The notes: a model not told the origin generated them from the letters alone. A stretch of DNA of 64,000 nt from a bacterium (GCA_041640655.1 JBEPZV010000001.1:154845-218844); one strand, 5' to 3'. Shown: positions 1,833 to 60,310, counted from the first letter of the stretch. Made by a program: numbers and translations.

Positions 1833-2735
1833 ATGAGGAGCATCGAGCGAAAATCGCTGATCATCGACGAGCGGGAGGCCGCCTCCTGGATCCGCGATGG
1901 GATGACCATCGCCATCGGCGGCTTCATCAATTCGAGCCATCCGATGGCCATCGTGCGCCAGATCATCCGTCGGGGAGTGCGCGATCTCACGGTCATTGGA
2001 CCGGCCTCGGGCGGCCTCGATCTGGATCTCCTCATCGGAGCCGGATGCGTCCGGAAGCTCGTGACGGCTTACATGGGGGGCGAACACTACTGTCCGGTCG
2101 CCCCGATGTTCCGCGCCGCCGTCGAACGCGGGGAGCTCCAGGTTTGGGAGTGCGATGAGGGGATGTATTACTGCGCCCTGCGCGCGGCAGCCCAGCGCCT
2201 GCCCTTCACGCCGTGGAAGGCCGGGATCGGGACGTCGTTCCCCGACGTCAACCCGGACATCAAGGTCTTCCCCGATCCGATCACGGGCGAGCCGCTTCTG
2301 GCCATCCCGGCCATCAAGCCCGACATCGCCCTCATCTACGCCGCCCACGCCGATCCATACGGGAACATCCAACACATCGGGACGGGATTCGGCGATCGGG
2401 CCCTCTGGCGCGCCGCCGATCGGACGATCGTGCAGGTCGAGCGGATCATCCCCAACGAGGAGGTGCGGAAGAATCCGTTGGCGACATCCCTCTACGGCGT
2501 GGACGCGATCGTGCGCGCCCCCTACGGCTCGCATCCGTTCGCCGCGCCGGGCTACTACATCGAGGATGCCGAGCATCTGCGCGAATATGTGGCCGCGGCC
2601 ACCGCCTACGCCAAGCACGGCGATCGCGGACCCTTCGAGGCGTACCTGCGGCAATATGTCCTCGAGCCGGAGACGCATGCCGATTACCTGGAGGTCATCG
2701 GGATTCGCCGCCTCATCAGCTTGCACGAGTATTGA
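1833..2735 (+). CDS. CoA-transferase subunit A (glutaconate/3-oxoacid CoA-transferase family)
   Basis: Internal ATG at 1833 in ORF 1002..2735; the upstream part of that ORF overlaps the previous gene in another frame. CoA-transferase A motifs (IAIGGF, DPYGNIQ). Confidence 0.7.
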   Translation: MRSIERKSLIIDEREAASWIRDGMTIAIGGFINSSHPMAIVRQIIRRGVRDLTVIGPASGGLDLDLLIGAGCVRKLVTAYMGGEHYCPVAPMFRAAVERGELQVWECDEGMYYCALRAAAQRLPFTPWKAGIGTSFPDVNPDIKVFPDPITGEPLLAIPAIKPDIALIYAAHADPYGNIQHIGTGFGDRALWRAADRTIVQVERIIPNEEVRKNPLATSLYGVDAIVRAPYGSHPFAAPGYYIEDAEHLREYVAAATAYAKHGDRGPFEAYLRQYVLEPETHADYLEVIGIRRLISLHEY

Positions 2736-2738
2736 CCT

Positions 2739-3536
2739 ATGGCCAAGACGTCCGCCAGAGACTTCACGACCAAAGAACTCATCGCCGCCTTCATCGCCCA
2801 TCAGGTGCGCGATGGAGAGCGCGTGGCCGTCGGCGCCGGACTTCACGTGCCGCGCGCCGGGATCCTGCTGGCGCACCTGCTCTATTGCCCCAACGTGCGG
2901 CTCTACATCGTCATGACATTCACCAATCTGCTCAAGGAGCCGCGGATGGAGCCCTTCTACACGGTGACCGATTTCCGCCCGGCGAAATGGGCCGAAGCCT
3001 ACGTCCTGCACGACGATTTCCAAGAGAACCCCCGCCTGGTCTCAAATATGTTCGTCGTGGGCGCTCTGCAGATTGATCCCTACGGGAATTCGAACCTCAT
3101 CGGCGTCGGCCGGGACTATCACCGACTGAGCTTTCGTGGGCCCGGGGCGGTGGGCACGACCTCGATGGCCCATTACGTGGATCGCTACTACCTCTACGTG
3201 CAATCTCACGATCGGCGCATCTTCGTCGAGAAGTGCGACTTCATCTCCACCCTCGGTTGGGGAGAGGGGGGTCCCGATGGGCGCCGACGACTCGGCCTCC
3301 CCGATAACGGGCCGATCTATTGCATCACCCCGCTGGGCATCATGGACTTCGAGCCGCAGACCAAGCGCATGCGACTCAAGTCCGTCCATCCCGGCGTGAC
3401 CGTGGACGACGTGGTGCGAAACACGGGATTTGAGCTGATCATCCCCGATGTGGTGCCGGAGACCGAACCACCGACGGTCGAAGAGCTGCGCGTGCTTCGC
3501 GAGCGCATTGACGTGGAGGGGATGCTGCGACGATGA
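2739..3536 (+). CDS. CoA-transferase subunit B
   Basis: Adjacent to subunit A; subunit-B-like sequence (DPYGNSNLIG, conserved Glu region); 265 aa. Confidence 0.7.
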   Translation: MAKTSARDFTTKELIAAFIAHQVRDGERVAVGAGLHVPRAGILLAHLLYCPNVRLYIVMTFTNLLKEPRMEPFYTVTDFRPAKWAEAYVLHDDFQENPRLVSNMFVVGALQIDPYGNSNLIGVGRDYHRLSFRGPGAVGTTSMAHYVDRYYLYVQSHDRRIFVEKCDFISTLGWGEGGPDGRRRLGLPDNGPIYCITPLGIMDFEPQTKRMRLKSVHPGVTVDDVVRNTGFELIIPDVVPETEPPTVEELRVLRERIDVEGMLRR

Positions 3537-5443
3537 CCTGGAAACTCCTGGAGCCGATCACCTTCAGCGGTCTGCGCGTGAAGAATCGGATCGTCATGCC
3601 CCCCATGGGGATGGGGTATGCGAACGAGGACGGTACCGTCTCCGATCGCATGATCCGCTATTACCTCCGGCGGGCGCAAAGCGGCGTCGGCATGATCGTC
3701 ATCGAGAACTGCATCGTGGACCCTCAGGTCGTCGGCGTGGGACCGGAGCTGCGCATTCACGACGATCTCTACATCGAGGGATTGCGCCGGCTCGTGCGCG
3801 CGCTCAAGCCCTACGACGTCATCGTCGGCTTGCAGTTGAACCACATGGGGCGGCAAACGACCTTGGGCACGCCCGTCGCCCCCTCGCCCATCCCCATCTC
3901 GCCCAAAGGGCCGATCCCGCGCGCCCTCACGACGGAGGAGATTCGCGTCGTCGTGAGCGAATTCGTCGAGGGAGCGCGGCGCGCGCGCGAGGCCGGCTTC
4001 GACTTCGTCGAGATCCACGGCGCGCACGGATACCTCGTCTGCGAATTCCTCTCCCCGGCCTCCAATCGCCGGGAGGACGAGTATGGAGGCTCCCTGGAGG
4101 GCCGACTGCGCTTCCCCCTGGAGATCGTCGCGGGCATCCGCGAACGTGTGGGCGCGGATTTCCCCATTCAGTTTCGCCTCTCCGCTCAGGAATACGTGCC
4201 CGAGGGGTTGACGCTGGAGGAGACCCGCCAGGTCGCGCGGCGTCTGGAGCAGGCTGGCGTCAGCGCGATCAGCGTCTCCGCGGGGAATTGGCAAACGCTC
4301 CATTACATCATGGCGCCCATGTTCATGCCCAAGGGGTACCTCGTCGAGGACGCCGCGGCGATCAAATCCGCCGTGCACATCCCGGTCATCGCCGTCGGCC
4401 GCCTGCATGACGTCGCCGTGGCCGAGCGCGTCCTGCGCGAGGGGAAGGCCGATCTCATCGCCGTCGGCCGCGGGCTCATCGCCGATCCCGAATGGGCGAA
4501 GAAGGTGAGGGAAGACCGCATCGAGGACATCCGACCCTGCATCTCCTGCAACTATTGCGTGGACTTCGTCTCGCGGGCGCTAGAGGCGCGCTGTACGGTC
4601 AATGCCGAACTCGGCGAGGAGTTCACGTTCCATGTTCGACCGGCGCGACAGCGCAAGCGCATCGTCATCATCGGTGGCGGACCGGCCGGACTGGAGGCGG
4701 CGCGCGTGGCGGCCGAACGCGGGCACGAGGTCTGGCTCTTCGAGAAGGATCGGCGCCTGGGCGGGAAGCTCCACGTCTCGGCCGCCGCGCCCTCCAAGGC
4801 GGAGATCCATCGGTTCACGGAATATCTGATCCGCCAGATCCAGAAGCATCGCGTCCGCGTCGAATTGGGCGTGACGCTCACGCGCGAGGAGCTGCTCGGA
4901 GGACATCCCGACATCATCATCCTGGCGACGGGGAGCGTGCCCGCGATCCCTCCGCTTGTGGGCGCGGACCTCCCCATGGTGGCGCTCGCCGAAGACGTGC
5001 TGCTTGGGCGCACCACCGTGGGCCCTCGCGTGGTGATCGTGGGCGGAGGCGGAACCGGGTGCGACGTGGCCGAATATCTGCTCCATCGCGGCCACGAGCT
5101 GACGATCCTCGAACTGCTCTCGCATATCGGCCGGGGCGTGGAAGCCATCACCCGCCGCTACCTGTACTATGCGTTCAAAAAGGCGGGCGTGCGCCTGCTG
5201 ACGCGACACCGTATCGCGCGAATCGAGCCAGGACGGGCCATCGCACTCGATGAGCAGGATCGCGAACACCTCATCCCATGCGACTCCGTCGTCCTCGCCA
5301 TGGGATACCGGCCGAATGACGAGATGGCCTTCTGTCTGGAAGAGGACTTCCCCGTACCCGTGTATCGGATCGGGGATTGCGTCCGTCCGGGGACGATCCT
5401 GGACGCGGTGACCCAGGGCGCTCACCTGGCGGCGAAGCTGTGA
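3533..5443 (+). CDS. 2,4-dienoyl-CoA reductase-like flavoenzyme (OYE-type FMN domain fused to FAD/NAD(P)-binding domain)
   Basis: N-terminal old-yellow-enzyme TIM-barrel motifs, central Cys cluster CISCNYC, second Rossmann motif IVIIGGGPAGLEAA; ATGA overlap with upstream stop. Confidence 0.8.
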   Translation: MTWKLLEPITFSGLRVKNRIVMPPMGMGYANEDGTVSDRMIRYYLRRAQSGVGMIVIENCIVDPQVVGVGPELRIHDDLYIEGLRRLVRALKPYDVIVGLQLNHMGRQTTLGTPVAPSPIPISPKGPIPRALTTEEIRVVVSEFVEGARRAREAGFDFVEIHGAHGYLVCEFLSPASNRREDEYGGSLEGRLRFPLEIVAGIRERVGADFPIQFRLSAQEYVPEGLTLEETRQVARRLEQAGVSAISVSAGNWQTLHYIMAPMFMPKGYLVEDAAAIKSAVHIPVIAVGRLHDVAVAERVLREGKADLIAVGRGLIADPEWAKKVREDRIEDIRPCISCNYCVDFVSRALEARCTVNAELGEEFTFHVRPARQRKRIVIIGGGPAGLEAARVAAERGHEVWLFEKDRRLGGKLHVSAAAPSKAEIHRFTEYLIRQIQKHRVRVELGVTLTREELLGGHPDIIILATGSVPAIPPLVGADLPMVALAEDVLLGRTTVGPRVVIVGGGGTGCDVAEYLLHRGHELTILELLSHIGRGVEAITRRYLYYAFKKAGVRLLTRHRIARIEPGRAIALDEQDREHLIPCDSVVLAMGYRPNDEMAFCLEEDFPVPVYRIGDCVRPGTILDAVTQGAHLAAKL

Positions 5444-17256: not shown

Positions 17257-17276
17257 CGCGTCGCCCCGATCCTCCC

Positions 17277-17314
17277 GGGGTCCCCACGCGATCCGGAGAT
17301 CGCGTGGGGTGCCC
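17277..17314 (-). repeat. 38-nt palindromic element copy b (intergenic, reverse orientation)
   Basis: GGGGTCCCCACGCGATCCGGAGATCGCGTGGGGTGCCC is the exact reverse complement of copy d; perfect 12-bp arms with a 4-nt spacer. Confidence 0.85.
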
Positions 17315-17335
17315 GAACTCCCCGAACGGAGGACT

Positions 17336-19540: not shown

Positions 19541-20770
19541 ATGAGGCGCATGACCCTCGAGGAGATCAATCGCCACATCCGGCTGATCGCGGAACAGCTG
19601 AAGGCGTTCATGCGCTCGGAGCAACGCGCGCTCCTGCGATCGGCGCTTTTTGACGTCCCCCGCCGCTCCTCGCTCGGATGGGAATGCCTCTACCGCACGG
19701 CCTATCCGCTGCTGGCGGACCTCACGTCGGTCGTCACGCCTGAGGAGATCGGACGCCGGATGAAGCGCGTGTGCGCGCGCCCGAATTTCCTCACGCTGAG
19801 CATTCTGATCTGCTGCTACCTCGGGGGACGCCAGCAGCGGATCCTCGATCTCGGCGTGCGACCGGGAGAGCCCTTCCCCGAGGATGATCCCGAGCAGATC
19901 GGCTTCGTCCTCGACTTCTGGTGGCGCGTCTGCCGCACCTATCGCGAGGATGGTGCCCTCTTGCCGGAAGAGCGAGGAGGGACGATGCCGATCCTGCCGG
20001 CCGGAACGATCGCTCGACTCCGCGCGCTGCTGGTCGAGACGGATCCGCTCACGGTGAAACGCCTTCGTCGTCTGGCGGCGACGCTGGAGCTGTACGCGTT
20101 CATCCTGCACGGGGAGCAACGCGATGGCCTCTTCGCGCACGGCCCGTACGCGCTGCAGGAGCGGGCGGGCACCCCACGCGATCTCCGGATCGCGTGGGGA
20201 CCCCGGGAGGTGCTCGTCATTCGCGAGTTCACCGACCTGCAGAACAGTTATCTCCCCTGGGCGCAGACGCGCGCGCGGAACCTCTACCCGAATCTGGCGC
20301 TCGCGCTCCAGCTTCGGGACGTGACGGCTCAGTTCGATCTCTTCGGAGGGGTGCGATTCGATCCCCCGGAATATGCTGATCGCGTTCGCGCCGTCGCGTT
20401 GGTGACCGTGGCCGACAATGGGGAGATCCGAGCCGTCCCTTTCGAGGAGATCGAGGAGATCGAACGCCGCGCGGCCGACGCCCAGATGGAGCTGTATCAA
20501 CGCGCGCTCTGCTGGTCGCCGCGCTTCAAGATCGAATACGGCCTCTACCTGTTCGCGAACCACGTGAAGGCGTTCTTCGATCTGGCGGGGGTGGAGGCGG
20601 GCGAGCGCATTCGTCGGGCGTTCGAAGAGGCCGCCGCTCCGTTCCTGCAGCGGTTGCTCGCCGATGCCGAACCACCATTCATCTGGCGGTTCATGGCGAC
20701 GACAGAAGGCGATTTCTTCTATCCGATCTCCGCGCAGATGCCCGAACGTGAGGGAGGAGAGGGGCGATGA
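19541..20770 (+). CDS. conserved hypothetical protein (paralog P2), carries an in-frame palindromic-element insertion
   Basis: Paralog of P1. Insertion GTPRDLRIAWGPRE (copy d) lies at a site where P1 has no insertion. Confidence 0.5.
   Translation: MRRMTLEEINRHIRLIAEQLKAFMRSEQRALLRSALFDVPRRSSLGWECLYRTAYPLLADLTSVVTPEEIGRRMKRVCARPNFLTLSILICCYLGGRQQRILDLGVRPGEPFPEDDPEQIGFVLDFWWRVCRTYREDGALLPEERGGTMPILPAGTIARLRALLVETDPLTVKRLRRLAATLELYAFILHGEQRDGLFAHGPYALQERAGTPRDLRIAWGPREVLVIREFTDLQNSYLPWAQTRARNLYPNLALALQLRDVTAQFDLFGGVRFDPPEYADRVRAVALVTVADNGEIRAVPFEEIEEIERRAADAQMELYQRALCWSPRFKIEYGLYLFANHVKAFFDLAGVEAGERIRRAFEEAAAPFLQRLLADAEPPFIWRFMATTEGDFFYPISAQMPEREGGEGR
20167..20204 (+). repeat. 38-nt palindromic element copy d (inside P2 coding sequence)
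   Basis: GGGCACCCCACGCGATCTCCGGATCGCGTGGGGACCCC; perfect 12-bp inverted arms. Confidence 0.85.
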
Positions 20771-22923
20771 GAGAGGAGAGCCTCTTGATGGTTCACCAGC
20801 AGGAGCCGCTTGGTCAGAGCGAGCCCGCTCGGGAATACTCCTGCGCTGTGGATACGGGGGGGACGTTCACCGACTGCGTCGTCGGCGATTCGGAGGGGAA
20901 TCTGGTCTTCGCCAAGAGCCCCTCGACGCCGCACGATTTTTCGGCGGGCTTCTTCGCCGCACTCGCCCTGGCGGCGGAGCAGCTTGGGCTCACGCTCACC
21001 GAACTGATGGCGCGCACGCGACGGCTCATGCACGGGACGACGGTGGGCACCAACGCCATGGTGGAGCTCAAAGGGGCGCGCGTGGGGTTGATCACGACGC
21101 GGGGGCATGGGGATGCCATCCTCATCATGCGCTCGGTGGGCCGCTCGGCGGGATTGCCGATCGAGCGGTTGCTGCATGTCTCCCGTCATCAGAAACCCCG
21201 GCCCCTCGTCCCCCGCCACCTCATTCGCGAGGTGAGCGAACGCGTGGACTGGCGCGGCGAGGTCATCGTGCCTCTGAATCGAGAAGAGGCGCGTCGCGCC
21301 ATCGAGGAGTTGCTGGAGCAGAAGGTCGAGGCCATCGCCATCGCCTTCCTCTGGGGATTCGTGAATCCCATCCACGAGCGCGAGGTTCGCCGCATGGTCG
21401 AGGAGATAGCGCCCGACCTCTTCGTCACCTGCGCGCACGAGTTGATCGCGAAGCCGGGCGAGTATGAGCGGACGGCGGCGACCGTGATCAATTGTTTCAT
21501 CGGGCCGAAGACGACGCAGTACATCCGCCGGGTGGAAGAGCGGGCTCGCGCGCTCGGCTGCACGGCTCCCCTCCTCATCATGCAAGCATCAGGTGGCGTC
21601 GCGCCGGCCCGGGAGATCCTGCGCGCGCCGTTGTTCACCATCGGCTCGGGGCCGGCAGGGGGCTTGATGGGATGCCAGTTCCTGGCCGAGACCCTCGGAC
21701 ATCCCCACGTCATCGCCACGGACATGGGGGGGACGAGCTTCGACGTCGGCCTCATCGTGGACGGGATGCCGCTGTCGGCGTCCGAGACCACACTCGAGCA
21801 GTACACCTTCTTCATGCCTCGCTTGGACATCCTCTCCATCGGCGCGGGCGGAGGATCCATCATCTGGATCGATGAGCGGAGCGGAACCCTGAAAGTCGGT
21901 CCGGAATCAGCGGGGGCAGACCCGGGACCCGCCTGCTACGGACGCGGAGGCACACGACCCACGGTGACCGATGCGGACCTCATCCTCGGCTATTACAATC
22001 CGGAGTTCTTCCTGGGGGGGAGGCTGACGCTCAATCCTGAAGCGGCTCACCACGCGATGCGCACGGTCGCCGACCCCCTCGGGTTGGACATCACCGAGGC
22101 GGCCGACGGAGCCACGCGGATCGTTGAGATGCAGATGGCCGATCTCATCCGGCAGATGACCATCCAGCGGGGATACGATCCGCGCGATTTCGTCATCTAC
22201 GCCTACGGCGGAGCCGCCGGCGCCCATGCGGCTGTCTACGCGCGGGAGTTGGGATGCCGCACGGTCGTCATCCCGCGCGGAGTCCTGGCCGCCACCTGGT
22301 CGGCCTTCGGGATCCTCTCGACGGATGTCCAGCACGTCTTCGAGAGATCGGAGCTGCTCATCGCACCCCTGGATGCGACGCGCGTCACGGAGATCTTCCT
22401 CGAGCTGGAAGAGCGAGCCCGCCGACAATTGTGCGAGGAGGGGGTGGCCGAGGATCAGATCCTCCTGCGCCGCTTCGCGGAGATGAAGTTCCGACTGCAG
22501 ATCCATCGCGTCGAGATCCCCGTCCCCGGTGGGATTCTGACCGATCAGGACATGCGCGATCTGGAGCAGGCATTCGTACAAAAGTACGAGACGCTCTATG
22601 GACGCGGATCGGCATTCACGGCGGCGGGCATGGAGATCGGCCTGCTGCGCGTGGTGGCGCTCGGGCGCATCGCTCGCGGGCCGTTGAAGCAGCTCTCCAC
22701 CGAGCACCGCAGCGGATGGACGCCCGTCGGACGGCGCCAGGTCTACTGGCGGGAACTCGGACGACGGATTCAAACGCCCATCTTCTCCGGGGAAGGGATC
22801 CCCCCTGAGACATCTCTGGAGGGTCCGGCGATCGTCGAACTGCCCGTGACGACCATCGTCGTCCGCCCGGGCGACCGCCTCACCACCGATGCATATGGGA
22901 ATTTCATCCTCACCCTCCCCTGA
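20767..22923 (+). CDS. hydantoinase A / acetone-carboxylase beta-like subunit (HyuA family)
   Basis: 718 aa; N-terminal AVDTGGTFTDCVV and ASKHD-superfamily ATPase motifs of hydantoinase A/oxoprolinase. Confidence 0.8.
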   Translation: MREESLLMVHQQEPLGQSEPAREYSCAVDTGGTFTDCVVGDSEGNLVFAKSPSTPHDFSAGFFAALALAAEQLGLTLTELMARTRRLMHGTTVGTNAMVELKGARVGLITTRGHGDAILIMRSVGRSAGLPIERLLHVSRHQKPRPLVPRHLIREVSERVDWRGEVIVPLNREEARRAIEELLEQKVEAIAIAFLWGFVNPIHEREVRRMVEEIAPDLFVTCAHELIAKPGEYERTAATVINCFIGPKTTQYIRRVEERARALGCTAPLLIMQASGGVAPAREILRAPLFTIGSGPAGGLMGCQFLAETLGHPHVIATDMGGTSFDVGLIVDGMPLSASETTLEQYTFFMPRLDILSIGAGGGSIIWIDERSGTLKVGPESAGADPGPACYGRGGTRPTVTDADLILGYYNPEFFLGGRLTLNPEAAHHAMRTVADPLGLDITEAADGATRIVEMQMADLIRQMTIQRGYDPRDFVIYAYGGAAGAHAAVYARELGCRTVVIPRGVLAATWSAFGILSTDVQHVFERSELLIAPLDATRVTEIFLELEERARRQLCEEGVAEDQILLRRFAEMKFRLQIHRVEIPVPGGILTDQDMRDLEQAFVQKYETLYGRGSAFTAAGMEIGLLRVVALGRIARGPLKQLSTEHRSGWTPVGRRQVYWRELGRRIQTPIFSGEGIPPETSLEGPAIVELPVTTIVVRPGDRLTTDAYGNFILTLP

Positions 22924-22955
22924 GCAGGGGGCTATCCCTTCGGAGGAGGACGACT

Positions 22956-25220
22956 ATGTCATCCATCGCGTGGGACGGCCGGCAATACCCCTACGTCTAT
23001 GGCCGAGAGCTGAAGATCGCTCCCGGCCTGAAACTCCACACGGAGGCGGTCGAGCGTATAGACCCGATCACCTACGAGGTCATCCGCCACGCCCTCTGGA
23101 ATATCAACGTCGAACACGGGCTGACCATCATGAAGATCTCCGGCTCCCCCATCTGCGCCTACGGGCATGACTTCAATCCCTGCCTCCTTGACGAGAAGGG
23201 GGATTTCGTCTTCTTCGGCCCGTTCCTTCAGTATCTCTCCTCGGCGACCAGCTCGGCGGTGAAGTGGACGCTGGAGTATCGCTCGGAGAATCCGGGGATC
23301 GAGGAGGACGACATCTTCTTGACGAACGATCCGTGGATCGGCGCGACCCATCAATCGGATGTGACGTTGATCGCGCCCGTCTTCTGGGAGGGGGAGCTGT
23401 TCTGCTGGGTGGGGAATACGCTGCACCAGTGGGATTTAGGGGGGACATCGCCCGGAGGGTTCAATCCCATGGCCCCCGATGTCTATTGGGAGGCCGGATG
23501 CATCCCCCCGATCAAGATCGTCGAACGCGGACGCTTGCGGCGCGATCTGGAGGAAGAGTACATCCGCCGGTCGCGAATGCCGGAACTGGTGGCCCTGGAT
23601 CTGCGCGCGGAGATCGCCGGCTGCCACGTCGCCCGCGAGCGCATCAAACAGTTGCTCGCGCGATACGGAGCCGCGACCGTCAAGGGCGTCATGCGCAAGC
23701 TTCAGGAGGATTCGGAGCGCGCCTTCGTGCGACGCTTGGCGACCATCCCCGATGGGACGTGGCGCGAGGTCGGATGGGTGGAGTGGGCGCACCCGGGCGA
23801 TCGGCGCGTGTACCGGAATTGCCTGACGCTCACCAAGCGCGGCGATCAGTTGATCTTCTCCAACGAGGGGACTGACCCACAAGCCGGCACGCTCAATTGC
23901 ACGCTCGTCGCCTGGAGGGGGGCCATCATGGCCATGGTCTCGGCGCAACTGCTCTTCGATCAGATGTTCGTCGTCGAAGGCGCCTATCGGCATGTCCAGT
24001 TCCAGGTGCAGCCGGGGACGCTCACGTGCGCGCTCTTTCCGGCCGCGGTGAGCGCTGCCCCCGCGCTCACGCTCCTTCAGACGATCGCCCTCTCGGGACT
24101 CGTGATCTCCAAGATGCTCGCCTGTTCGGACGATCCCGAGTTGCGGATGGAAGTCCAAAGCTGCATGGGCGCACCCATGTATCCGATCGCGGCCGTGAGC
24201 GGCCTCAATCAGCGGGGATCGCCCTACGTCTCCTTCCTGCTCGATCCGGTGGGAGCCGCCCTGGCCGGACTCTCCTGGCGAGATGGCGTGGATACGGGCG
24301 GCTGGCCCTGGGATCTGCAAAGCACCATGCCCAATGTCGAGGAGAACGAGTGGTTCTATCCGATCCTCTACCTCTGGCGTCGCGAGCTGCCCGATTCAGG
24401 CGGAGCGGGAATGTTCCGCGGTGGGAACGCCGCCGAATTGGCCTTCCTCCCTCATGGGACGGAACGCATCACGCTCTTCACCGCGACCGGACATTGCGCC
24501 GTCCCGGGACCGGGGCTGTTCGGCGGCTTCCCCACTTCGACGACGCGGTATGCCCTTGTTCGCAACACTCGCGCGCGATCACTCTTGTCCGCCGGACACG
24601 TGCCAGATCGCCTGGAGGTTCTCGGAGGACATGTGGAATATCTCCCGCCCAAGGCCTTCGACATCGTTCAGAATCCCGACGACGTCTTCATCATGTCCTG
24701 GGCCTCAGCGGGCGGCTACGGGGATCCGTTGCGGCGCGATCCTGAGCGCGTGGCCGAGGACTATCGCGAAGGGCGCTTGACCCGGGAGTGGGCGCAACGA
24801 GCCTATGGGGTCGTGCTCGATGAGACCGGAGCTGTCCTCGCGCCGGAGACGGAGCAGCTGCGCCAGCAGATGCGCCGGCATCGTATAGGAGCCGAGCCGA
24901 AGCCGCAAACGGCTCCTGATGAACCCGAGGCGCGCCTCTTGGCTGAAGGTCTGAAACTCGTCGGGGGATGGATCCGCTGCCGGTATTGCGATCATCCCCT
25001 CTCACCCCCGACGGAGAACTATAAGCGCCACTGCCTCCGAAAAAGCCTCTCCATTCAGGACGCGAACCCGCATATCCGCGATCCGAAGCTCTACATCGAA
25101 GAGACTCTGGAGTGGCGCCACTTCTACTGCCCGGGATGCGGCGCGCTCCTTCAGACGGAATTGGCGCGACCTTCGGATCCTCCCCTCTGGGACCTGCAGC
25201 TTGATCTCGGCGCGAAGTGA
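22956..25220 (+). CDS. hydantoinase B / acetone-carboxylase alpha-like subunit (HyuB family) with C-terminal Cys4 motif
   Basis: 754 aa HyuB-like. C-terminal CRYCDHP...CPGCGA resembles Zn-binding motifs of ATP-dependent ketone carboxylases. Confidence 0.8.
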   Translation: MSSIAWDGRQYPYVYGRELKIAPGLKLHTEAVERIDPITYEVIRHALWNINVEHGLTIMKISGSPICAYGHDFNPCLLDEKGDFVFFGPFLQYLSSATSSAVKWTLEYRSENPGIEEDDIFLTNDPWIGATHQSDVTLIAPVFWEGELFCWVGNTLHQWDLGGTSPGGFNPMAPDVYWEAGCIPPIKIVERGRLRRDLEEEYIRRSRMPELVALDLRAEIAGCHVARERIKQLLARYGAATVKGVMRKLQEDSERAFVRRLATIPDGTWREVGWVEWAHPGDRRVYRNCLTLTKRGDQLIFSNEGTDPQAGTLNCTLVAWRGAIMAMVSAQLLFDQMFVVEGAYRHVQFQVQPGTLTCALFPAAVSAAPALTLLQTIALSGLVISKMLACSDDPELRMEVQSCMGAPMYPIAAVSGLNQRGSPYVSFLLDPVGAALAGLSWRDGVDTGGWPWDLQSTMPNVEENEWFYPILYLWRRELPDSGGAGMFRGGNAAELAFLPHGTERITLFTATGHCAVPGPGLFGGFPTSTTRYALVRNTRARSLLSAGHVPDRLEVLGGHVEYLPPKAFDIVQNPDDVFIMSWASAGGYGDPLRRDPERVAEDYREGRLTREWAQRAYGVVLDETGAVLAPETEQLRQQMRRHRIGAEPKPQTAPDEPEARLLAEGLKLVGGWIRCRYCDHPLSPPTENYKRHCLRKSLSIQDANPHIRDPKLYIEETLEWRHFYCPGCGALLQTELARPSDPPLWDLQLDLGAK

Positions 25221-25252
25221 CCGCCCGACCTTCGCCGACAAGGAGACCGACG

Positions 25253-25597
25253 ATGAGGAAAATCGGGGAAGGGGAGCCGACGTCCGGACACGGCGCCGTC
25301 GGCATCTTGCGCAAAGTCGAAACCTTGGAGGACGTCCTGCGGTTGATGGAGATCGATCTCTCGGAGACGATCGTCTTCACTCCCTCGGCCTCGGTGACGG
25401 CCATCACGCCGATCCTTCCCAAGATCCGAGGGCTCATCTGCGCTTCCGGAGGCTTCACGTCGCATCTGGCGATCGTCGCCCGGGAGTTCGATCTGCCGTG
25501 CCTGATGGGAAGCCACCTCGAGGAGGTGAGCGCCCTCGAAGGACGTCGCGTGCGATTCACGGCCCAAGGGGAGATCTTTCTCGAGGACGATGTCTGA
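25253..25597 (+). CDS. PEP-utilizing enzyme mobile (phosphohistidine) domain protein, stand-alone
   Basis: GGFTSHLAIVAREFDLPCL matches the phosphohistidine swivel-domain signature; ATG 25253 after AAGGAGA. Confidence 0.7.
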   Translation: MRKIGEGEPTSGHGAVGILRKVETLEDVLRLMEIDLSETIVFTPSASVTAITPILPKIRGLICASGGFTSHLAIVAREFDLPCLMGSHLEEVSALEGRRVRFTAQGEIFLEDDV

Positions 25598-26468
25598 ACG
25601 GCGCCCGAAGATTTACCTGAATCTGAGCTTCCCCCAATTGGCCGCTCGGTACGCGCATCTTCCCGCCGATGGCGTCGGGCTCTTGCGCGCCGAATTCCTC
25701 GCCCTCTCGCTGGGTGTCCATCCGAAGCAGCTCCTCGCCGAAGGGGGGGCGGAGACCTTCATCCGAGCCTTCGCCGAGGGAGTGATCGAGGTCGCGCGCC
25801 AGTTCTGGCCCCGACCGGTCACCTATCGCGCGCTCGACCTGAAATCGAACGAATATCGCGGCCTGCGCGGAGGCCAGCAGCTCGAGGAGCCGGAAGAGAA
25901 CCCCGCGCTCGGTCTGCGCGGATGCCGCCGCTATCTGGATGATCCGGAGCTCCTCCGCCTCCAAGCGCGCGCCGTACGAAGCGTCCATGAGGCCGGATGG
26001 ACCAACGTGCGCCTGATGCTCCCCTTCGTGCGCACCGTGTCGGAGGTCCTCGCCTGCCGCGAGATCCTTCAGCAGGAGGGGCTCTTCGAGAGAGGTATCC
26101 CCCTCTGGATCATGGTCGAAGTGCCCTCGGTCGTCTTCCTCATCGAACGATTCCTCCCGTTGGTGGACGGCGTCTCCATCGGAACCAACGATCTCACGCA
26201 GCTCATCCTCGGCGTGGATCGAGATAACCCGCGATTGATCCCCCTGTGGGATGAGCGCGACGACGCCATCATGCGCGCTATCGAATGGGTCGCGCGCGCA
26301 TGCCGGGAGAGCGCCCTGGAGTGCTGCGTCTGCGGCGATGCCCCCTCGCGACGCCCGGAGCTGATCCCCCAGCTGCTGCAACTGGGCCTCACGGCCCTCT
26401 CGGTCTCCCCCGAGGCCTTTGAGCGAACGCTTCGAATCGTGCGCGAGAGAGAGCCCGGCTCAGGGTGA
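25590..26468 (+). CDS. PEP-utilizing enzyme C-terminal TIM-barrel (PEP/pyruvate-binding) domain protein, stand-alone
   Basis: PEP-synthase C-terminal domain motifs (GLLRAEFL, SIGTNDLTQ, CGDAPS); no ATP-grasp domain present. Confidence 0.7.
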   Translation: MSERRPKIYLNLSFPQLAARYAHLPADGVGLLRAEFLALSLGVHPKQLLAEGGAETFIRAFAEGVIEVARQFWPRPVTYRALDLKSNEYRGLRGGQQLEEPEENPALGLRGCRRYLDDPELLRLQARAVRSVHEAGWTNVRLMLPFVRTVSEVLACREILQQEGLFERGIPLWIMVEVPSVVFLIERFLPLVDGVSIGTNDLTQLILGVDRDNPRLIPLWDERDDAIMRAIEWVARACRESALECCVCGDAPSRRPELIPQLLQLGLTALSVSPEAFERTLRIVREREPGSG

Positions 26469-27120
26469 GCCGCTAGCGTACGTCGCTCGCCCAGAGCCGC
26501 GAGCCTTCTTGCTCCCATCACCCTCCCCGGGTTCCCCACCCTATCCCCCATCGCCACGATTTCCGCCTCATCTCAGTCCGTGCGGGGACGTCCGCTGCTG
26601 CTCTCGCTCTTGTTTCGTCCGTCGGCCCGCCGGATCCCCGGTCACCTCTCCATCCCCTCTGAATCCGACGCCTTTCAGGAACCGCCGCTGTGCCGGAAGC
26701 CACGACAGGCTCGATCGCGCATCATCGGGCGAAAATCCCTATATCCACATGAGCCTCCGCACGCTCATACCCGAAGCAGACGGCATCGGAACGTAGATCC
26801 CAGGTCGACCGCCTCGCCCACAACCTGCGAGGCAGCTCCCGCAGCAGATGCCTCAGCCTTCGACCATATCGGGGGCATCGGGTTTGGGCCGCGTCCTCCG
26901 ACAGGCGAAGCGCGCTCCCCATCCCACATCGGGGGGAGGGAGTCGGTCCGAGGATCCGCTCTTCGGGCTTTAAAACGAGCTTCGGTATGCCTTATGATTG
27001 ATCTTCCACAGGAGCGAGCACGATGTGTGAGCTGGACATGGAGAGAATGGCTCAGCGTGGGCATCCTGTGATCGGCGCGCGCTTCGCTCCGAGCGCGCTC
27101 TCTCAATAGGGAGGATCGCG

Positions 27121-28371
27121 ATGGCCTTCACCATGAAGGATCTCCACGATTTGATTCGGATCTTGGAGAAGCATCCGGAGTGGCGCACGGAACTGCGGCG
27201 GCTCCTTCTGACCGATCAGCTGCTGGAGCTGCCCGTCATCGTTCGCGAGTTGGCCGAAGCACAGCGACGAACGGAGGAACGCGTGGAGGCGTTGGCCGAG
27301 GCGCAGCGGCGGACGGAAGAACAGGTGCGGGCCTTGACGCAGCAGGTGCAGGCCTTGGCCGAGGCGCAACGGCGGACGGAGGAGCGGGTCAGTCGGGTGG
27401 AGGAAGAGCTGGCCAAGTTGGCCGAAGCGCAACGGCGGACGGAAGAACAGGTGCGGGCCTTGACGCAGCAGGTGCAGGCCTTGGCCGAGGCGCAACAGCG
27501 GACGGAGGAGCGGGTCAGTCGGGTGGAGGAAGAGCTGGCCAAGTTGGCCGAAGCGCAACGGCGGACGGAAGAACAGGTGCGGGCCTTGACGCAGCAGGTG
27601 CAGGCCTTGGCCGAGGCGCAACAGCGGACGGAGGAGCGGGTCAGTCGGGTGGAGGAAGAGCTGGCCAAGTTGGCCGAAGCGCAACGGCGGACGGAAGAAC
27701 AGGTCCGGGCCTTGACCGAGGCGCAGCGACGAACGGAAGAACAGGTGCGAGCCTTGACTGAAGCGCAGCGGCGGACGGAGGAGCAGGTGCAAGCCTTGAC
27801 CGAAGCGCAGCGGCGGATCGAACAGCAAGTCGCCGATCTGGTGGCCGCTCAACAGCGCACCGAGCGCACCTTGCAACGCCTCCTCGAATGGCAACAGGGC
27901 GAAGCGGGACGGCGCGAGGGCGAGCGATACGAGCGGCGCATCGTGGTGCGCGCGCCCAACCTGTTCTTCGGTGGCGAGGGCGGTGCACCCGGGGAGCCGG
28001 ATGTGCGTCGTCAACTCAGCCGGTGGCTTCACCCGTTCTATCGAGAGGGTCGAGCCCCGGATCCCCCCGCCGATCCTCTCCTGGCCGACCTCATTTGGTG
28101 GAAAGGAGAGGAAGTGTTCGTCGTGGAGGTGTCGCAGAAAGTGGACCCTCAGGACATCCACCGCGCCCGTCAACGAGCCGATACCTTGCGCGAAGCGGGC
28201 GTGAACGCCACACCGGCTGTGATCGGCGAGGAGTGGGCGACGCCGGAGTCACAGGCGCTGGCCCAACAGGAATCGGTGGAATGGTTGGTCGGCGGAGGCC
28301 TTTCCCAGGGGTTCCTGCGCTTCCGCCGCCTGTCAGCCGAGACGCTGGAAAATCCCCCACGCGAAGGATGA
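27121..28371 (+). CDS. coiled-coil repeat protein (paralog A) with C-terminal putative PD-(D/E)xK-like domain
   Basis: N-terminal conserved block [22 protein letters not shown], then repeats of AEAQRRTEE(R/Q)V..., C-terminal FVVEVSQK block; ribosome-binding site GGGAGG. Confidence 0.6.
   Translation: MAFTMKDLHDLIRILEKHPEWRTELRRLLLTDQLLELPVIVRELAEAQRRTEERVEALAEAQRRTEEQVRALTQQVQALAEAQRRTEERVSRVEEELAKLAEAQRRTEEQVRALTQQVQALAEAQQRTEERVSRVEEELAKLAEAQRRTEEQVRALTQQVQALAEAQQRTEERVSRVEEELAKLAEAQRRTEEQVRALTEAQRRTEEQVRALTEAQRRTEEQVQALTEAQRRIEQQVADLVAAQQRTERTLQRLLEWQQGEAGRREGERYERRIVVRAPNLFFGGEGGAPGEPDVRRQLSRWLHPFYREGRAPDPPADPLLADLIWWKGEEVFVVEVSQKVDPQDIHRARQRADTLREAGVNATPAVIGEEWATPESQALAQQESVEWLVGGGLSQGFLRFRRLSAETLENPPREG
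27292..27810 (+). repeat. intragenic tandem repeat: 126-nt unit x3 followed by about 42-nt units x3
   Basis: Near-identical nucleotide units gccgaggcgcaacggcggacggaggagcgggtcagtcgggtggaggaagagctggccaagttg... Confidence 0.8.
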
Positions 28372-58156: not shown

Positions 58157-58805
58157 GGCGCTTCCTCCGTTCGCCGAGCTCACCCACATTGTGCCACGAG
58201 TAGCGGTGTTTGTGAACTGAGCAGGCGAACCGCTGTCGGTGTGCGCCGGATGCGAATCGGAGACGACGCGAACGGACCGAAGGAGGGACACCCTGTTGTG
58301 AGAACGGCGCAGCCAGAATCCGGGAGCGTCAATGGCGGATACTTCGAGCTTGCCGAACTTCGAGATCCTCCGCGAGCGGCTGGCTCGGGAACTGATCCTC
58401 TGCCTCAGTCTGGACCATTTGACGCTCTGGACTGCCTGAGAGGGGGATCGCGAGCGGTGGAGGGGCCAGCTCGTGGCTGAACTGCGCACCGATGACTTGT
58501 CGTGATGGATGCGGAGCTGGCACGTGTGAAGAAGAGAACCGCAAGCGACATCGGGTGATCAATGGAGGGGGAGCGGAGCCTGGGGAGAGGTGCTCGGTCT
58601 CAGGAAGCCCATTGAGTCCGATAATTCGACGAGGACCGAGCGTCTGGCGAGGGCTCGGTCGTCGTTGTTTTGTTTGTTTGCGGTGTCCGCTTCCACGCCA
58701 TTTCATGTGAAGGAGGCGTGGCTTATCCCGGGCGTGTTTCGGCGCTTGAGGCGTGTGGCCTCGTCGTGTATAGTGTTGGTGATTGGGCGGAGGTCATGTG
58801 GCACT

Positions 58806-60002
58806 ATGGCTTTTGAGGTGGACGATTATCTGGATCTGATTCGACTGCTGCAGGAGCATCCGGAGTGGCGGGCAGAGCTGCGCCGTCTGCTGCTGACGGA
58901 GGAGCTGCTGGCGCTACCGGAGCTGGTCCGTGATCTGGTCCACGCCCAGCGGCAGACGCAAGAACACCTGGCGGCGTTGGCCGAGGCGCAACGGCGGATC
59001 GAACAACAGGTGGAGGCGTTGACGCAACAGGTGCAGGCCTTGGCCGAGGCACAACGGCGGACGGAGGAGCGGGTCAGTCGGGTGGAGGAAGAGCTGGCCA
59101 AGCTGGCCGAAGCGCAACGGCGGACGGAGGAGCGGGTCAGTCGGGTGGAGGAAGAACTGGTCAAGCTGGCCGAGGCACAACGGCGGACGGAGGAGCGGGT
59201 CAGTCGGGTGGAGGAAGAACTGGTCAAGCTGGCCGAGGCACAACGGCGGACGGAGGAGCGGGTCAGTCGGGTGGAGGAAGAGCTGGCCAAGCTGGCCGAG
59301 GCACAACGGCGGACAGAAGAGCGGGTCAGTCGGGTGGAGGAAGAGCTGGCCAAGCTGGCCGAGGCACAACGGCGGACGGAGGAGCGGGTCAGTCGGGTGG
59401 AGGAAGAACTGGTCAAGCTGGCCGAGGCACAACGGCGGACGGAGGAAGAGGTGCGTGCTCTGGCCGAGGCCCAGCGCCGGACCGAGCAGCGTGTTGGCCA
59501 TCTGGAAGAAGCGCTGCAGGTCCTGATCGAGAGCCACAAACGCTTGACGGATGTGGTGGGCGATCTCAGGGGGCGCGTGTTGGAACAGACCTACCGCGAC
59601 CGGGCCGGCGCATACTTCGGTCCGTTGCTGCAGCGGCTCCGGGTCGTGGACCCGTATGCGCTGGAGGAGGTGTTGCGCGTCCATCTCACGGCGGACGAGT
59701 TTTACGATCTGCTGCGCGTAGACCTGCTCGTTTGTGGGCAGCCGCGGTTGCGGCCGGAGATGATGGAGGTCTGGCTGGTGGTGGAGATCTCGGCCGTCGT
59801 GGATCAGGGTGATGTCGAGCGCGCCCAACGGCGGGCCAAACACTTGCGCCGAGCCGGCTATCGGGCGATTCCGATGGTGGCTGGGGAGCGCGTGACGTCG
59901 GGCGCAGAGGACGAGGTCCGCCGGCACCGCGTGGCGGTCTTGCAGGATGGGAGCGTGTCCTTCTGGGAGGAAGCCCTGGAGGCGTGGGCGGGCAGCGCCT
60001 GA
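58806..60002 (+). CDS. coiled-coil repeat protein (paralog B) with C-terminal putative PD-(D/E)xK-like domain
   Basis: Same N-terminal block as paralog A ([22 protein letters not shown]); 21-aa repeats [18 protein letters not shown](A/V)KL; C-terminal VVEISAVVD block. Confidence 0.6.
59040..59417 (+). repeat. intragenic tandem repeat, 63-nt unit x6
   Basis: Nearly identical 63-nt units (ctggccgaggcacaacggcggacggaggagcgggtcagtcgggtggaggaagaactggtcaag). Confidence 0.85.
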
Positions 60003-60154
60003 GGAGCCGATGGTGTGTCGTTGTCCCTTCCTTCTGTGCGAGGAGCCCGTCCCCGGTTCGTGGCAGCCCGCTGCCTGCCCACGAGTGAGGACCGCGCCGT
60101 CCGTGGGTCGGTGGGATTCACCGAGGCCGGAGTCAAGCGGTGCGCTGTGCTGCT

Positions 60155-60192
60155 GGGCACCCCGCGCAATCTCCCGATCACGTGGGAACCCC
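60155..60192 (+). repeat. 38-nt palindromic element copy e (intergenic, degenerate)
   Basis: GGGCACCCCGCGCAATCTCCCGATCACGTGGGAACCCC; about 6 substitutions relative to consensus. Confidence 0.65.
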
Positions 60193-60310
60193 GTAGGGTC
60201 GAGGATCGCCTGAATGCGCAGGCGGTGCGGCACGCCTTCAGGACGATCAACCGGGGGCTACTCGGCCGGCCCCGAGCCAACGCCTCACCTGTCCTGGAGA
60301 GAAGCACATC

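What the first reader, a model, noticed from the sequence alone, without database searches (positions are those of the whole stretch)
58806..60002. Second paralog of the coiled-coil repeat protein 31 kb away, with a different repeat unit (63 nt x6)
This gene shares the N-terminal [22 protein letters not shown] block and the C-terminal VVEIS block with 27121..28371. Its repeat array is built from a 63-nt unit encoding [18 protein letters not shown](A/V)KL. Two dispersed paralogs with independently homogenised arrays suggest concerted evolution within each locus and a function where coiled-coil length matters. Neither copy is in an obvious defence or mobile context.
Basis: seen in the sequence. 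Interest (0 to 1): 0.55.

Follow-up and report, generated by a model that had tools for sequence, protein, structure and literature searches.

The report
Coiled-coil stalk protein with nuclease-fold domain
The gene encodes a long rod-shaped (coiled-coil) protein ending in a nuclease-like domain, one of two copies in this stretch of a hot-spring bacterium's genome; it belongs to a large, unnamed and unstudied protein family, and its rod has been lengthened by recent repeat duplication and by exchange of repeat units with the other copy.

Summary
Gene B (58806-60002, +, 398 aa) carries six tandem 63-nt units. It is a true paralog of gene A (27121-28371, 416 aa): profile-profile probability is 99.9% and covers the N-terminal head and the whole C-terminal domain, not only the coiled coil.

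The C-terminal domain is unannotated in Pfam, NCBIfam, PADLOC and PHROGs. AlphaFold2 models it with pLDDT 94 (B) and 92 (A), and the best structural matches are PD-(D/E)xK nucleases (NucS/EndoMS, MspJI, Hjc). Invariant residues are E260, D306 and E327-x-S329 (Ser where Lys is usual), plus D336, R339 and R343 on the next helix.

The family has at least 1,695 clusters (50% identity, E<=1e-10). It occurs mostly in thermophilic Chloroflexota, Acidobacteriota and Armatimonadota, often in several copies per genome, with no conserved neighbour. The closest described kind is DUF1626/PDDEXK_10 with a DUF3782 stalk, which has no known function.

The arrays are not independent. The 63-nt unit is also in gene A at 61/63 nt identity, while the flanking sequence is saturated at third codon positions, which points to gene conversion. 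Both stalks keep an unbroken heptad register (28 and 30 heptads) and rank in the top 1% of the family for length.

Caveat: another assembly of the same population shows three units, not six.

The parts
58746..58774 (+). sigma-70-like promoter candidate (TTGAGG-17-TATAGT), with GGAGG at 58789-58793 ahead of the ATG
   Evidence: Consensus match only; 2 sites found in the region against 0.1 expected in shuffles.
58806..60002 (+). gene B, 398 aa: head + coiled-coil stalk + C-terminal nuclease-fold domain
58806..58937 (+). N-terminal head (residues 1-44), [29 protein letters not shown] motif
   Evidence: Conserved in 106 of 304 complete family proteins. Alignment A4 has H18, P19, W21, L37 and P38 near-invariant. 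No Pfam or PHROGs match.
58938..59525 (+). coiled-coil stalk (residues 45-240): 28 uninterrupted heptads, about 29 nm. Modules of 14 or 21 residues each open with A-Q(a)-R-R-T(d)-E.
   Evidence: strong hydrophobics at 66% of a/d positions against 4% elsewhere. for the module dissection.
59043..59420 (+). six tandem 63-nt 'S' units (residues 80-205), in two variants (AKL and VKL); units 3 and 6 of the six (labelled B4 and B7) are identical
59541..59999 (+). C-terminal PD-(D/E)xK-fold domain (residues 246-398). Motif I is E260 (59583), motif II is D306 (59721), motif III is E327-I-S329 (59784-59792), and the motif IV helix carries D336, R339 and R343.
   Evidence: AF2 pLDDT 94.2; Foldseek NucS/EndoMS, MspJI, AspBHI, BbvCI, NucC; invariant columns in A3; coordinates
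27121..28371 (+). gene A, the paralog (416 aa), with the same three-part architecture but a different C-terminal subfamily
27295..27672 (+). gene A array: three Q-S pairs (126-nt period). The S units are 61/63 nt identical to those of gene B.
27883..28368 (+). gene A C-terminal nuclease-fold domain (E271, D323, E336-V-S338, D345, R348, R352)
   Evidence: AF2 pLDDT 91.7; Foldseek NucS, MspJI, R.BspD6I, AF1548, Cdn1, Hje/Hjc

Best explanation
Gene B encodes a stand-alone protein with three parts. A 44-residue helical head carries the HPEWR motif. An uninterrupted parallel coiled-coil stalk of 28 heptads is built from 2- and 3-heptad modules, each opening with a polar Q(a)/T(d) core layer (the AEAQRRTE motif). 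The C-terminal domain has the restriction-endonuclease (PD-(D/E)xK) fold.

Shown: the architecture, the fold, the conservation of the acidic metal-binding residues, homology with gene A, membership of a large unannotated family that is often multi-copy per genome, and the absence of any conserved partner gene.

Inferred: the stalk makes a homo-oligomer (dimer or trimer) that brings the C-terminal domains together into a Mg2+-dependent nuclease. The motif III lysine would be functionally replaced by the invariant Arg residues on the following helix, as was proposed for DUF1626. The interchangeable head would target or anchor the rod, about 29 nm from the active sites.

The stalk evolves by unequal recombination between in-frame, heptad-preserving units and by gene conversion between paralogs. 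The S unit, native to the gene B lineage, entered gene A. It was then amplified alone in B (x6) and together with the Q unit in A (x3).
For: [quoted passage not shown]

Active-site pattern: E, D, E, D, R and R are invariant across both subfamilies, in the canonical motif I-IV positions. The only recurrent Pfam signal is a sub-threshold match to PF07788 PDDEXK_10, over beta3 plus the following helix. The published description of DUF1626 matches: N-terminal coiled coil, Lys to Thr in motif III, basic patch on the motif IV helix (PMC1913061).

Stalk: the heptad register is unbroken over 196 residues in B and 210 in A. Across the family the AQxRTE spacing is 14 or 21 residues, and 97% of spacings are multiples of 7.

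Family: 2,905, 1,695 and 305 clusters at E<=1e-3, 1e-10 and 1e-30, with the domain always C-terminal. There are 2-3 copies in many genomes, and an intact copy next to a split copy in Thermomicrobium roseum.

Gene conversion and amplification.
Against: No experiment exists for this family or for DUF1626. The motif III lysine is Ser (or Gly in some members), so catalysis is not assured. Foldseek E-values are weak (7e-3 to 9e-3; TM 0.35-0.46), although the listed probability is 1.0 and the top hits are consistently nucleases. Oligomeric state, substrate and head function are pure inference, and no multimer model could be run. The exact number of repeat units is uncertain in short-read assemblies.
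Confidence: 0.6

Rival explanations
1. The nuclease fold is catalytically dead. The protein would be a structural rod or scaffold whose C-terminal domain only binds nucleic acid or mediates oligomerisation.
For: The motif III Lys is replaced by Ser in nearly all members. There is no partner gene or context that suggests an enzymatic pathway. RPB5, a non-catalytic restriction-endonuclease-like fold, is among the structural hits.
Against: E260, D306 and E327 are invariant across two subfamilies whose domains are only about 24-31% identical, as are D336, R339 and R343 on the adjacent helix. Such conservation of a metal-site geometry is unusual in inactivated PD-(D/E)xK domains. Knizewski et al. 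argue for Lys migration in the analogous DUF1626.
Confidence: 0.2
2. It is a single-gene conflict or defence effector. The variable head would sense an invader and the stalk-tethered nuclease would cut foreign or self nucleic acid. Rapid turnover of stalk and head would reflect an arms race.
For: The family shows modular alternative heads on the same stalk and nuclease. It is multi-copy, has a patchy distribution across unrelated phyla and sits in non-syntenic positions in close relatives. The arrays change quickly. A NERD-domain gene lies near the T. roseum copies.
Against: PADLOC gives no match for the domains. There are no relatives in viral contigs or phage records. Neighbours are housekeeping genes and none is conserved. 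Nothing shows toxicity or phage response.
Confidence: 0.15
3. The six-unit array (and the S units in gene A) are partly products of short-read assembly of near-identical repeats, not the true genomic state.
For: A contig with 100% and 99.9% identical flanks has three units, and the array units labelled B4 and B7 (third and sixth of the six) are identical, so a k-mer graph loop could be skipped or over-traversed. All five other assemblies of the gene A locus break inside the array. In 19 of 80 related loci the gene is cut by a contig end, and the head profile retrieves mostly 38-81 aa fragments.
Against: An independent JGI assembly shows the V-A-A-V order of the last four units, as in the window. 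Unit variants (A/V, silent changes) give the array internal landmarks. Expanded arrays of the same kind occur in many unrelated family members.
Confidence: 0.25
4. It is a selfish mobile gene (homing-endonuclease-like) that spreads within and between genomes.
For: Multi-copy, patchy phyletic spread, free-standing with its own promoter-like site, and different locations in HR08/HR10 relatives.
Against: DNA similarity between the two loci stops at the coding sequence (27148-27841 against 58833-59505). There are no flanking repeats, transposase or integrase, and no plasmid or viral enrichment.
Confidence: 0.05

Closest known systems
DUF1626 / PDDEXK_10 (Pfam PF07788, COG5493) with DUF3782 coiled-coil stalk
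   Same: N-terminal coiled coil plus a C-terminal PD-(D/E)xK-fold domain. The motif III Lys is replaced by a small hydroxyl residue (Thr there, Ser here), with a conserved basic patch on the next helix. Both occur in thermophilic archaea and Chloroflexi, have a patchy distribution and have no known function. It is the only recurrent Pfam signal, and it falls on the right region.
   Different: It does not reach the Pfam cut-off (13-14 bits against 21.2; 3 of 37 members). The stalk has no nonad/beta-layer motif but a strict heptad with AQxRTE modules. It also has the HPEWR head and an extra two-helix insert between beta1 and beta2.
NucS / EndoMS (PDB 2vld, 5gke, 5gkj)
   Same: Best structural match for both C-terminal domains. 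It is a dimeric PD-(D/E)xK nuclease with a separate N-terminal module.
   Different: No sequence similarity. NucS has a beta-barrel DNA-binding and dimerisation domain instead of a coiled coil, and keeps the canonical D-ExK lysine.
Archaeal Holliday junction resolvases Hjc/Hje
   Same: A minimal PD-(D/E)xK core that acts as a homodimer. They are structural hits for gene A's domain, and DUF1626 was originally linked to them.
   Different: Weak matches (probability 0.2-0.5). They have no stalk or head and keep the canonical ExK.
CoCoNuT / McrBC-type coiled-coil nuclease systems
   Same: They combine long coiled coils with nucleases of the same superfamily.
   Different: They are multi-gene systems with a McrB GTPase and McrC. 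Here there is no partner gene and no PADLOC hit for the domain.
SMC/Rad50/JetC-type coiled-coil ATPases
   Same: They give database hits to the stalk.
   Different: The hits cover only the coiled coil, far below the cut-offs. There is no ATPase head and no hinge, and the heptad register is uninterrupted, so an antiparallel fold-back is unlikely.

Membership tests
PF07788 PDDEXK_10 (DUF1626, COG5493) | Match to the Pfam HMM at or above the gathering score (21.2 bits) | tested here: not met
   Genes A and B: no hit at E<=10. Of 37 family members, 3 hit at E 0.06-0.1, 13-14 bits, covering beta3 plus the following helix (profile positions 13-49 of 74).
PF07788 PDDEXK_10 (DUF1626, COG5493) | [quoted passage not shown] | tested here: met
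   AF2 secondary-structure order and Foldseek hits to PD-(D/E)xK nucleases for both paralogs.
PF07788 PDDEXK_10 (DUF1626, COG5493) | N-terminal, mainly coiled-coil, alpha-helical region | tested here: met
   28 and 30 uninterrupted heptads.
PF07788 PDDEXK_10 (DUF1626, COG5493) | Motif III Lys often replaced (by Thr), with a conserved Lys/Arg patch on the motif IV helix | tested here: met
   E327-x-S329, with invariant D336, R339 and R343 on the next helix; the same holds in gene A. This is analogous, not identical (Ser rather than Thr).
PD-(D/E)xK phosphodiesterase superfamily | Conserved acidic residues of motifs I-III (E ... D ... D/E) | tested here: met
   E260, D306 and E327 are invariant across both subfamilies.
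PD-(D/E)xK phosphodiesterase superfamily | Catalytic Lys in motif III ((D/E)xK) | tested here: not met
   The position is Ser (Gly in some gene A-type members).
PD-(D/E)xK phosphodiesterase superfamily | Metal-dependent phosphodiester cleavage | not testable with these tools
   Needs biochemistry.
DUF3782 (PF12644) coiled-coil stalk | Match to the Pfam HMM | tested here: not met
   It is not among the 25 best of the 39 (gene B) and 30 (gene A) weak coiled-coil families listed. Hartmann et al. note that bacterial stalks lack the nonad beta-layers.
NucS/EndoMS | Sequence homology and an N-terminal beta-barrel DNA-binding domain | tested here: not met
   No PDB sequence hit with a single sequence or with the profile. 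The N-terminal part is a coiled coil.
Known anti-phage defence systems (PADLOC-DB v2) | Match of the effector domain to a defence-protein model, or a conserved defence partner gene | tested here: not met
   No hit for either C-terminal domain; full-length hits are coiled coil only (JetC, LmuB, ZorA). No conserved neighbour in 80 loci.

The most novel reading that the evidence does not exclude
The family is a previously unrecognised, widespread class of free-standing 'rod nucleases'. A swappable head binds a target, and a stalk tuned in whole heptads sets the distance (about 10-30 nm) to a paired nuclease. That would make it a molecular ruler, or an invader-sensing effector. Paralogs would trade stalk modules by gene conversion so that co-resident copies keep matched lengths or can co-assemble.
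Probability: 0.12. Interest if true: 0.7.

Novelty: new variant of a known kind. Interest (0 to 1): 0.35.

Why it matters
It gives a structural identity to a large protein family that no annotation library currently names. The family has at least 1,695 clusters at 50% identity and is common in hot-spring Chloroflexota, Acidobacteriota and Armatimonadota. It is a coiled-coil-tethered PD-(D/E)xK-fold protein related to the never-characterised DUF1626/DUF3782 group.

The locus pair is a clean natural example of how coiled-coil length evolves. Insertions are only whole multiples of seven residues. The same ancestral unit pair was amplified in two different registers, and units were exchanged between paralogs 31 kb apart.

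There is also a practical point. These genes systematically break short-read assemblies, so their copy number and length are under-reported in MAGs. The biological role remains unknown, so the value is mainly as a lead for biochemistry, not as a discovery of a new mechanism.

Tried and rejected
Pfam, NCBIfam, PADLOC and PHROGs scans of the full proteins gave only coiled-coil noise (SMC, Rad50, JetC, DUF1664, Vac_Fusion), all far below the cut-offs. I rejected these as compositional.

PDB sequence searches, with a single sequence and with the profile, gave nothing meaningful. A de novo TIM-barrel hit at 2e-5 over 36 residues reported no matched stretch passing the threshold on its own, so I rejected it as spurious.

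There were no relatives in viral contigs or phage records, and only Thermomicrobium roseum among plasmids.

Neighbour clustering over 80 loci found no partner gene. The largest non-self clusters (7-8 loci) were, where checked on locus L021, metabolic genes: aminotransferase, FGGY kinase, RuBisCO-like protein and HD hydrolase.

There is no synteny of gene B with its HR08, HR10 or J050 homologues. No DNA similarity exists between the two loci outside the coding head and stalk, so a duplicated mobile segment is rejected. Rfam finds nothing in the window.

Literature searches for the motif strings found nothing.

The head-profile search, meant to find other effector domains behind the same head, returned mostly contig-end fragments and was uninformative on that question.

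The minus-strand ORFs over the arrays were rejected as genes. The plus-strand product has hundreds of homologues and folds confidently.

Full report
**Observation**

The window holds an ORF at 58806-60002 (+). The mechanical ORF starts at a GTG at 58590. The ATG at 58806 gives MAFEVDDY..., the start shared by more than 100 relatives, and it is preceded by GGAGG and by a promoter-like site at 58746-58774. Tandem Repeats Finder reports a 63-nt period, 6.4 copies and 95% matches at 59041-59446. For the other gene (27121-28371) it reports a 126-nt period, 3.4 copies and 98% matches.

BLASTP of the two products gives 53% identity and E 4e-71. The alignment runs from the first residue through the coiled coil to the VVEIS/VVEVS block. 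HMM scans of all six frames find only these two family members in the 64 kb.

**Is the similarity more than coiled coil?**

Yes. I searched with each C-terminal part alone and obtained two sets of homologues (93 and 202 proteins). I aligned them (A1, A2) and compared the profiles. The probability is 99.94% and E is 6.6e-37 over 220 columns. These columns include the N-terminal head and the complete C-terminal domain.

**What the C-terminal domain is**

Pfam, NCBIfam, PADLOC and PHROGs give no match for it. PDB sequence searches give none either.

AlphaFold2 with the family alignments gives confident models: pLDDT 94.2 and pTM 0.85 for gene B, and pLDDT 91.7 and pTM 0.85 for gene A. The order of elements is helix, strand, (two-helix insert), strand, strand, helix, strand. 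That is the restriction-endonuclease core.

Foldseek against the PDB returns nucleases of that fold at the top for both models:
- For gene B: NucS/EndoMS (2vld, 5gke, 5gkj), MspJI, AspBHI, BbvCI and NucC.
- For gene A: NucS, MspJI, R.BspD6I small subunit, AF1548, Cdn1, Hje/Hjc, Can2, MUS81 and McrC.

E-values are modest (about 7e-3 to 9e-3), but the two independent models agree.

In a trimmed alignment of both subfamilies (A3, 37 sequences, 24-31% identity between subfamilies) the invariant residues sit exactly where motifs I-IV of the superfamily lie:
- E260 on the first helix.
- D306 at the start of the second strand.
- E327 on the third strand, followed by a near-invariant S329 where the canonical lysine would be.
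- D336, R339 and R343 on the next helix.

**Closest known family**

Scanning every A3 member against Pfam at a permissive threshold gives one recurrent family, PF07788 PDDEXK_10 (formerly DUF1626). It matches 3 of 37 members at 13-14 bits against a cut-off of 21.2, and the match lies on the third strand plus the following helix.

Knizewski et al. 2007 described DUF1626 (COG5493) in Sulfolobus, Pyrobaculum, Chloroflexus and Roseiflexus. They described a PD-(D/E)xK domain preceded by a mainly coiled-coil region. Its motif III lysine is often threonine, and they proposed that it is replaced by a basic patch on the motif IV helix (PMC1913061). Steczkiewicz et al. 2012 list its function as unknown and its distribution as patchy. 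Hartmann et al. 2016 note that Pfam groups the stalks of these endonucleases as DUF3782, and that bacterial stalks lack the crenarchaeal nonads.

The present family has the same architecture and the same motif peculiarity but falls outside the Pfam model. I therefore call it a new variant of that kind, not a member.

**Size and spread of the family**

The A3 profile finds 2,905 clusters (50% identity) at E<=1e-3, 1,695 at 1e-10 and 305 at 1e-30 among 1.84 billion representatives. The domain is always C-terminal, and protein lengths run from 142 to 441 aa.

In species-representative genomes, 134 loci encode gene B-type relatives. They come from Acidobacteriota (HR08, HR10, J050), Poribacteria, many Anaerolineae, Thermoflexales, Caldilineae and Ardenticatenales, Pirellulaceae and Armatimonadota. 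Several genomes hold 2-3 copies. Gene A-type relatives are mostly from Armatimonadota/Fimbriimonadales.

A cultured example is Thermomicrobium roseum DSM 5159. An intact copy (TRD_RS15130) lies next to a second copy that is split in two.

The window itself comes from NCBI WGS project LJSS01 (a 224-kb contig). Its housekeeping proteins cluster at >=90% identity with those of bacteria HR08 and HR10.

**Context**

Gene A follows hydantoinase A/B-like genes and a split PEP-utilising enzyme, and it precedes a Tll0287-like protein. Gene B lies between an outer-membrane-like protein and a DUF5916/CBM9 protein.

I clustered all ORFs within 4 kb of 80 related loci. No neighbour occurred in more than 8 loci; the neighbours checked in one locus of the largest syntenic group are metabolic genes. 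No relative is found in viral contigs or phage records.

**The stalk**

Both stalks keep one heptad register from end to end: 196 residues (28 heptads, about 29 nm) in B and 210 residues (30 heptads, about 31 nm) in A. Strong hydrophobic residues fill 62-66% of a/d positions and 1-4% of other positions.

Each module is 14 or 21 residues long and opens with AEAQRRTE. This places Gln at position a and Thr at position d, which gives a recurrent polar core layer.

Across 304 complete family proteins the AQxRTE spacing is 14 residues (219 times) or 21 residues (137 times), and 97% of spacings are multiples of 7. The median head-plus-stalk is 119 residues. Gene A (256) and gene B (245) are both in the top 1%.

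About a third of the family carries the HPEWR head (106 of 304). At least three other heads occur in front of the same stalk and domain. Tandem amplification of modules is common in the family.

**How the two arrays relate**

Dissection into units gives these orders:
- Gene B: 14-mer, Q, S, S, S, S, S, S, 14-mer, 21-mer.
- Gene A: 14-mer, Q, S, Q, S, Q, S, then four 14-mers.

S is [21 protein letters not shown] and Q is [21 protein letters not shown].

The first Q-S pair sits at residues 59-100 in both proteins. Nucleotide identity between the two loci differs sharply by region:

| Region | nt identity | Third-position identity |
|---|---|---|
| S unit | 61/63 | 95% |
| Q unit | 87% | 81% |
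| Head | 68% | 45% |

No similarity exists outside 27148-27841 and 58833-59505.

The S unit occurs elsewhere only in one gene B-type relative (P0010, one to two copies). Closer gene A-type proteins lack it, including a 320-aa orthologue with a nearly identical head and domain (P0354).

The simplest reading is that S belongs to the gene B lineage and entered gene A by gene conversion. It was then amplified as S alone in B and as the Q-S pair in A. The arrays are therefore locally amplified but not independent.

**Array instability and assembly caveat**

A related strain (L084, 96% nt identity over 1.3 kb) has a different module order and one extra heptad in gene A.

For gene B, a hot-spring metagenome contig (L090) is 100% identical upstream and 99.9% identical downstream, but it has three S units (335 aa). 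The array units labelled B4 and B7 (the third and sixth S units) are identical. The difference could therefore be a real recombination product or a collapsed k-mer loop. An independent assembly (L091) shows the V-A-A-V order of the last four units as in the window.

All five other assemblies of the gene A locus end inside the array. In 19 of 80 related loci the gene is cut by a contig end. A head-profile search returns mostly 38-81-aa fragments. The count 'x6' should be treated as provisional.

**Mechanism**

I commit to the following, with confidence 0.6 overall.
- The protein is a homo-oligomeric rod. This is inferred from the unbroken parallel-type heptad pattern; dimer against trimer is undecided.
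- The rod's C-terminal PD-(D/E)xK domains are brought together to cut nucleic acid in a metal-dependent way. E260, D306 and E327 would bind the metal, and R339/R343 would stand in for the missing lysine. This is inferred by analogy with the DUF1626 proposal.
- The small interchangeable head at the far end provides targeting or anchoring. This part is speculative.

The main rivals are an inactivated fold that serves as a binding or scaffold module (0.2) and a single-gene conflict effector (0.15). A selfish mobile gene is unlikely (0.05).

**Verdict**

This is a real feature, correctly spotted but under-interpreted. It is a stalk-expanded member of a large, unannotated coiled-coil/PD-(D/E)xK family akin to DUF1626/DUF3782, with evidence of module exchange between the two paralogs. 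Function is unknown experimentally. Interest is moderate to low (0.35). The novelty class is a new variant of a known kind.

Noticed in passing
window 17271-17315 and 20166-20210: A 45-nt sequence that is itself a hairpin (CCCCACGCGATC-cgga-GATCGCGTGGGG core) occurs twice, 2.9 kb apart, at 100% identity. The two copies bracket a DUF7064/DUF7065 gene and two ORFs with no Pfam match. It may be a REP-like element.
   Followed up: partly
P0473 (4.96-Mb contig), P0503 (3.75-Mb contig), P0422 (bacterium HR15), P0429: Short ORFs of 43-77 aa consist only of the HPEWR head (sometimes with one stalk module) and end in a stop, on long contigs rather than at contig ends. They could be truncated pseudogenes or free-standing head peptides.
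   Followed up: no
L097 (Thermomicrobium roseum NC_011961.1) 1988-4462: An intact family member (TRD_RS15130) is followed by a second copy whose first ~100 residues are identical but which is split into two annotated CDS (TRD_RS09850 and TRD_RS09855). A NERD-domain gene lies just upstream.
   Followed up: partly
family members P0217, P0252, P0343, P0216, P0297, P0230: At least three other N-terminal head types replace the HPEWR head in front of the same AQxRTE stalk and C-terminal domain, which suggests modular head swapping.
   Followed up: partly
window 58826-59539 (-), 58914-60233 (-), 27103-28173 (-): Long ORFs (237-439 aa) on the opposite strand of both arrays are by-products of GC-rich in-frame repeats and are not genes.
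   Followed up: yes
window 20767-26468: Hydantoinase A, hydantoinase B with an acetone-carboxylase-gamma domain, and a PEP-utilising enzyme split into 114-aa (PF00391) and 292-aa (PF02896) genes form a cluster. At least the hydantoinase B and PEP-utilising genes are shared with HR08 and HR10, where hydantoinase B is annotated 'acetophenone carboxylase' and the PEP-utilising enzyme 'PEP synthase'.
   Followed up: no
window 58160-58805 and 26469-27120: Both paralogs are preceded by unusually long (~650 nt) stretches without a convincing gene. Rfam finds nothing there, and the two stretches share no sequence.
   Followed up: partly
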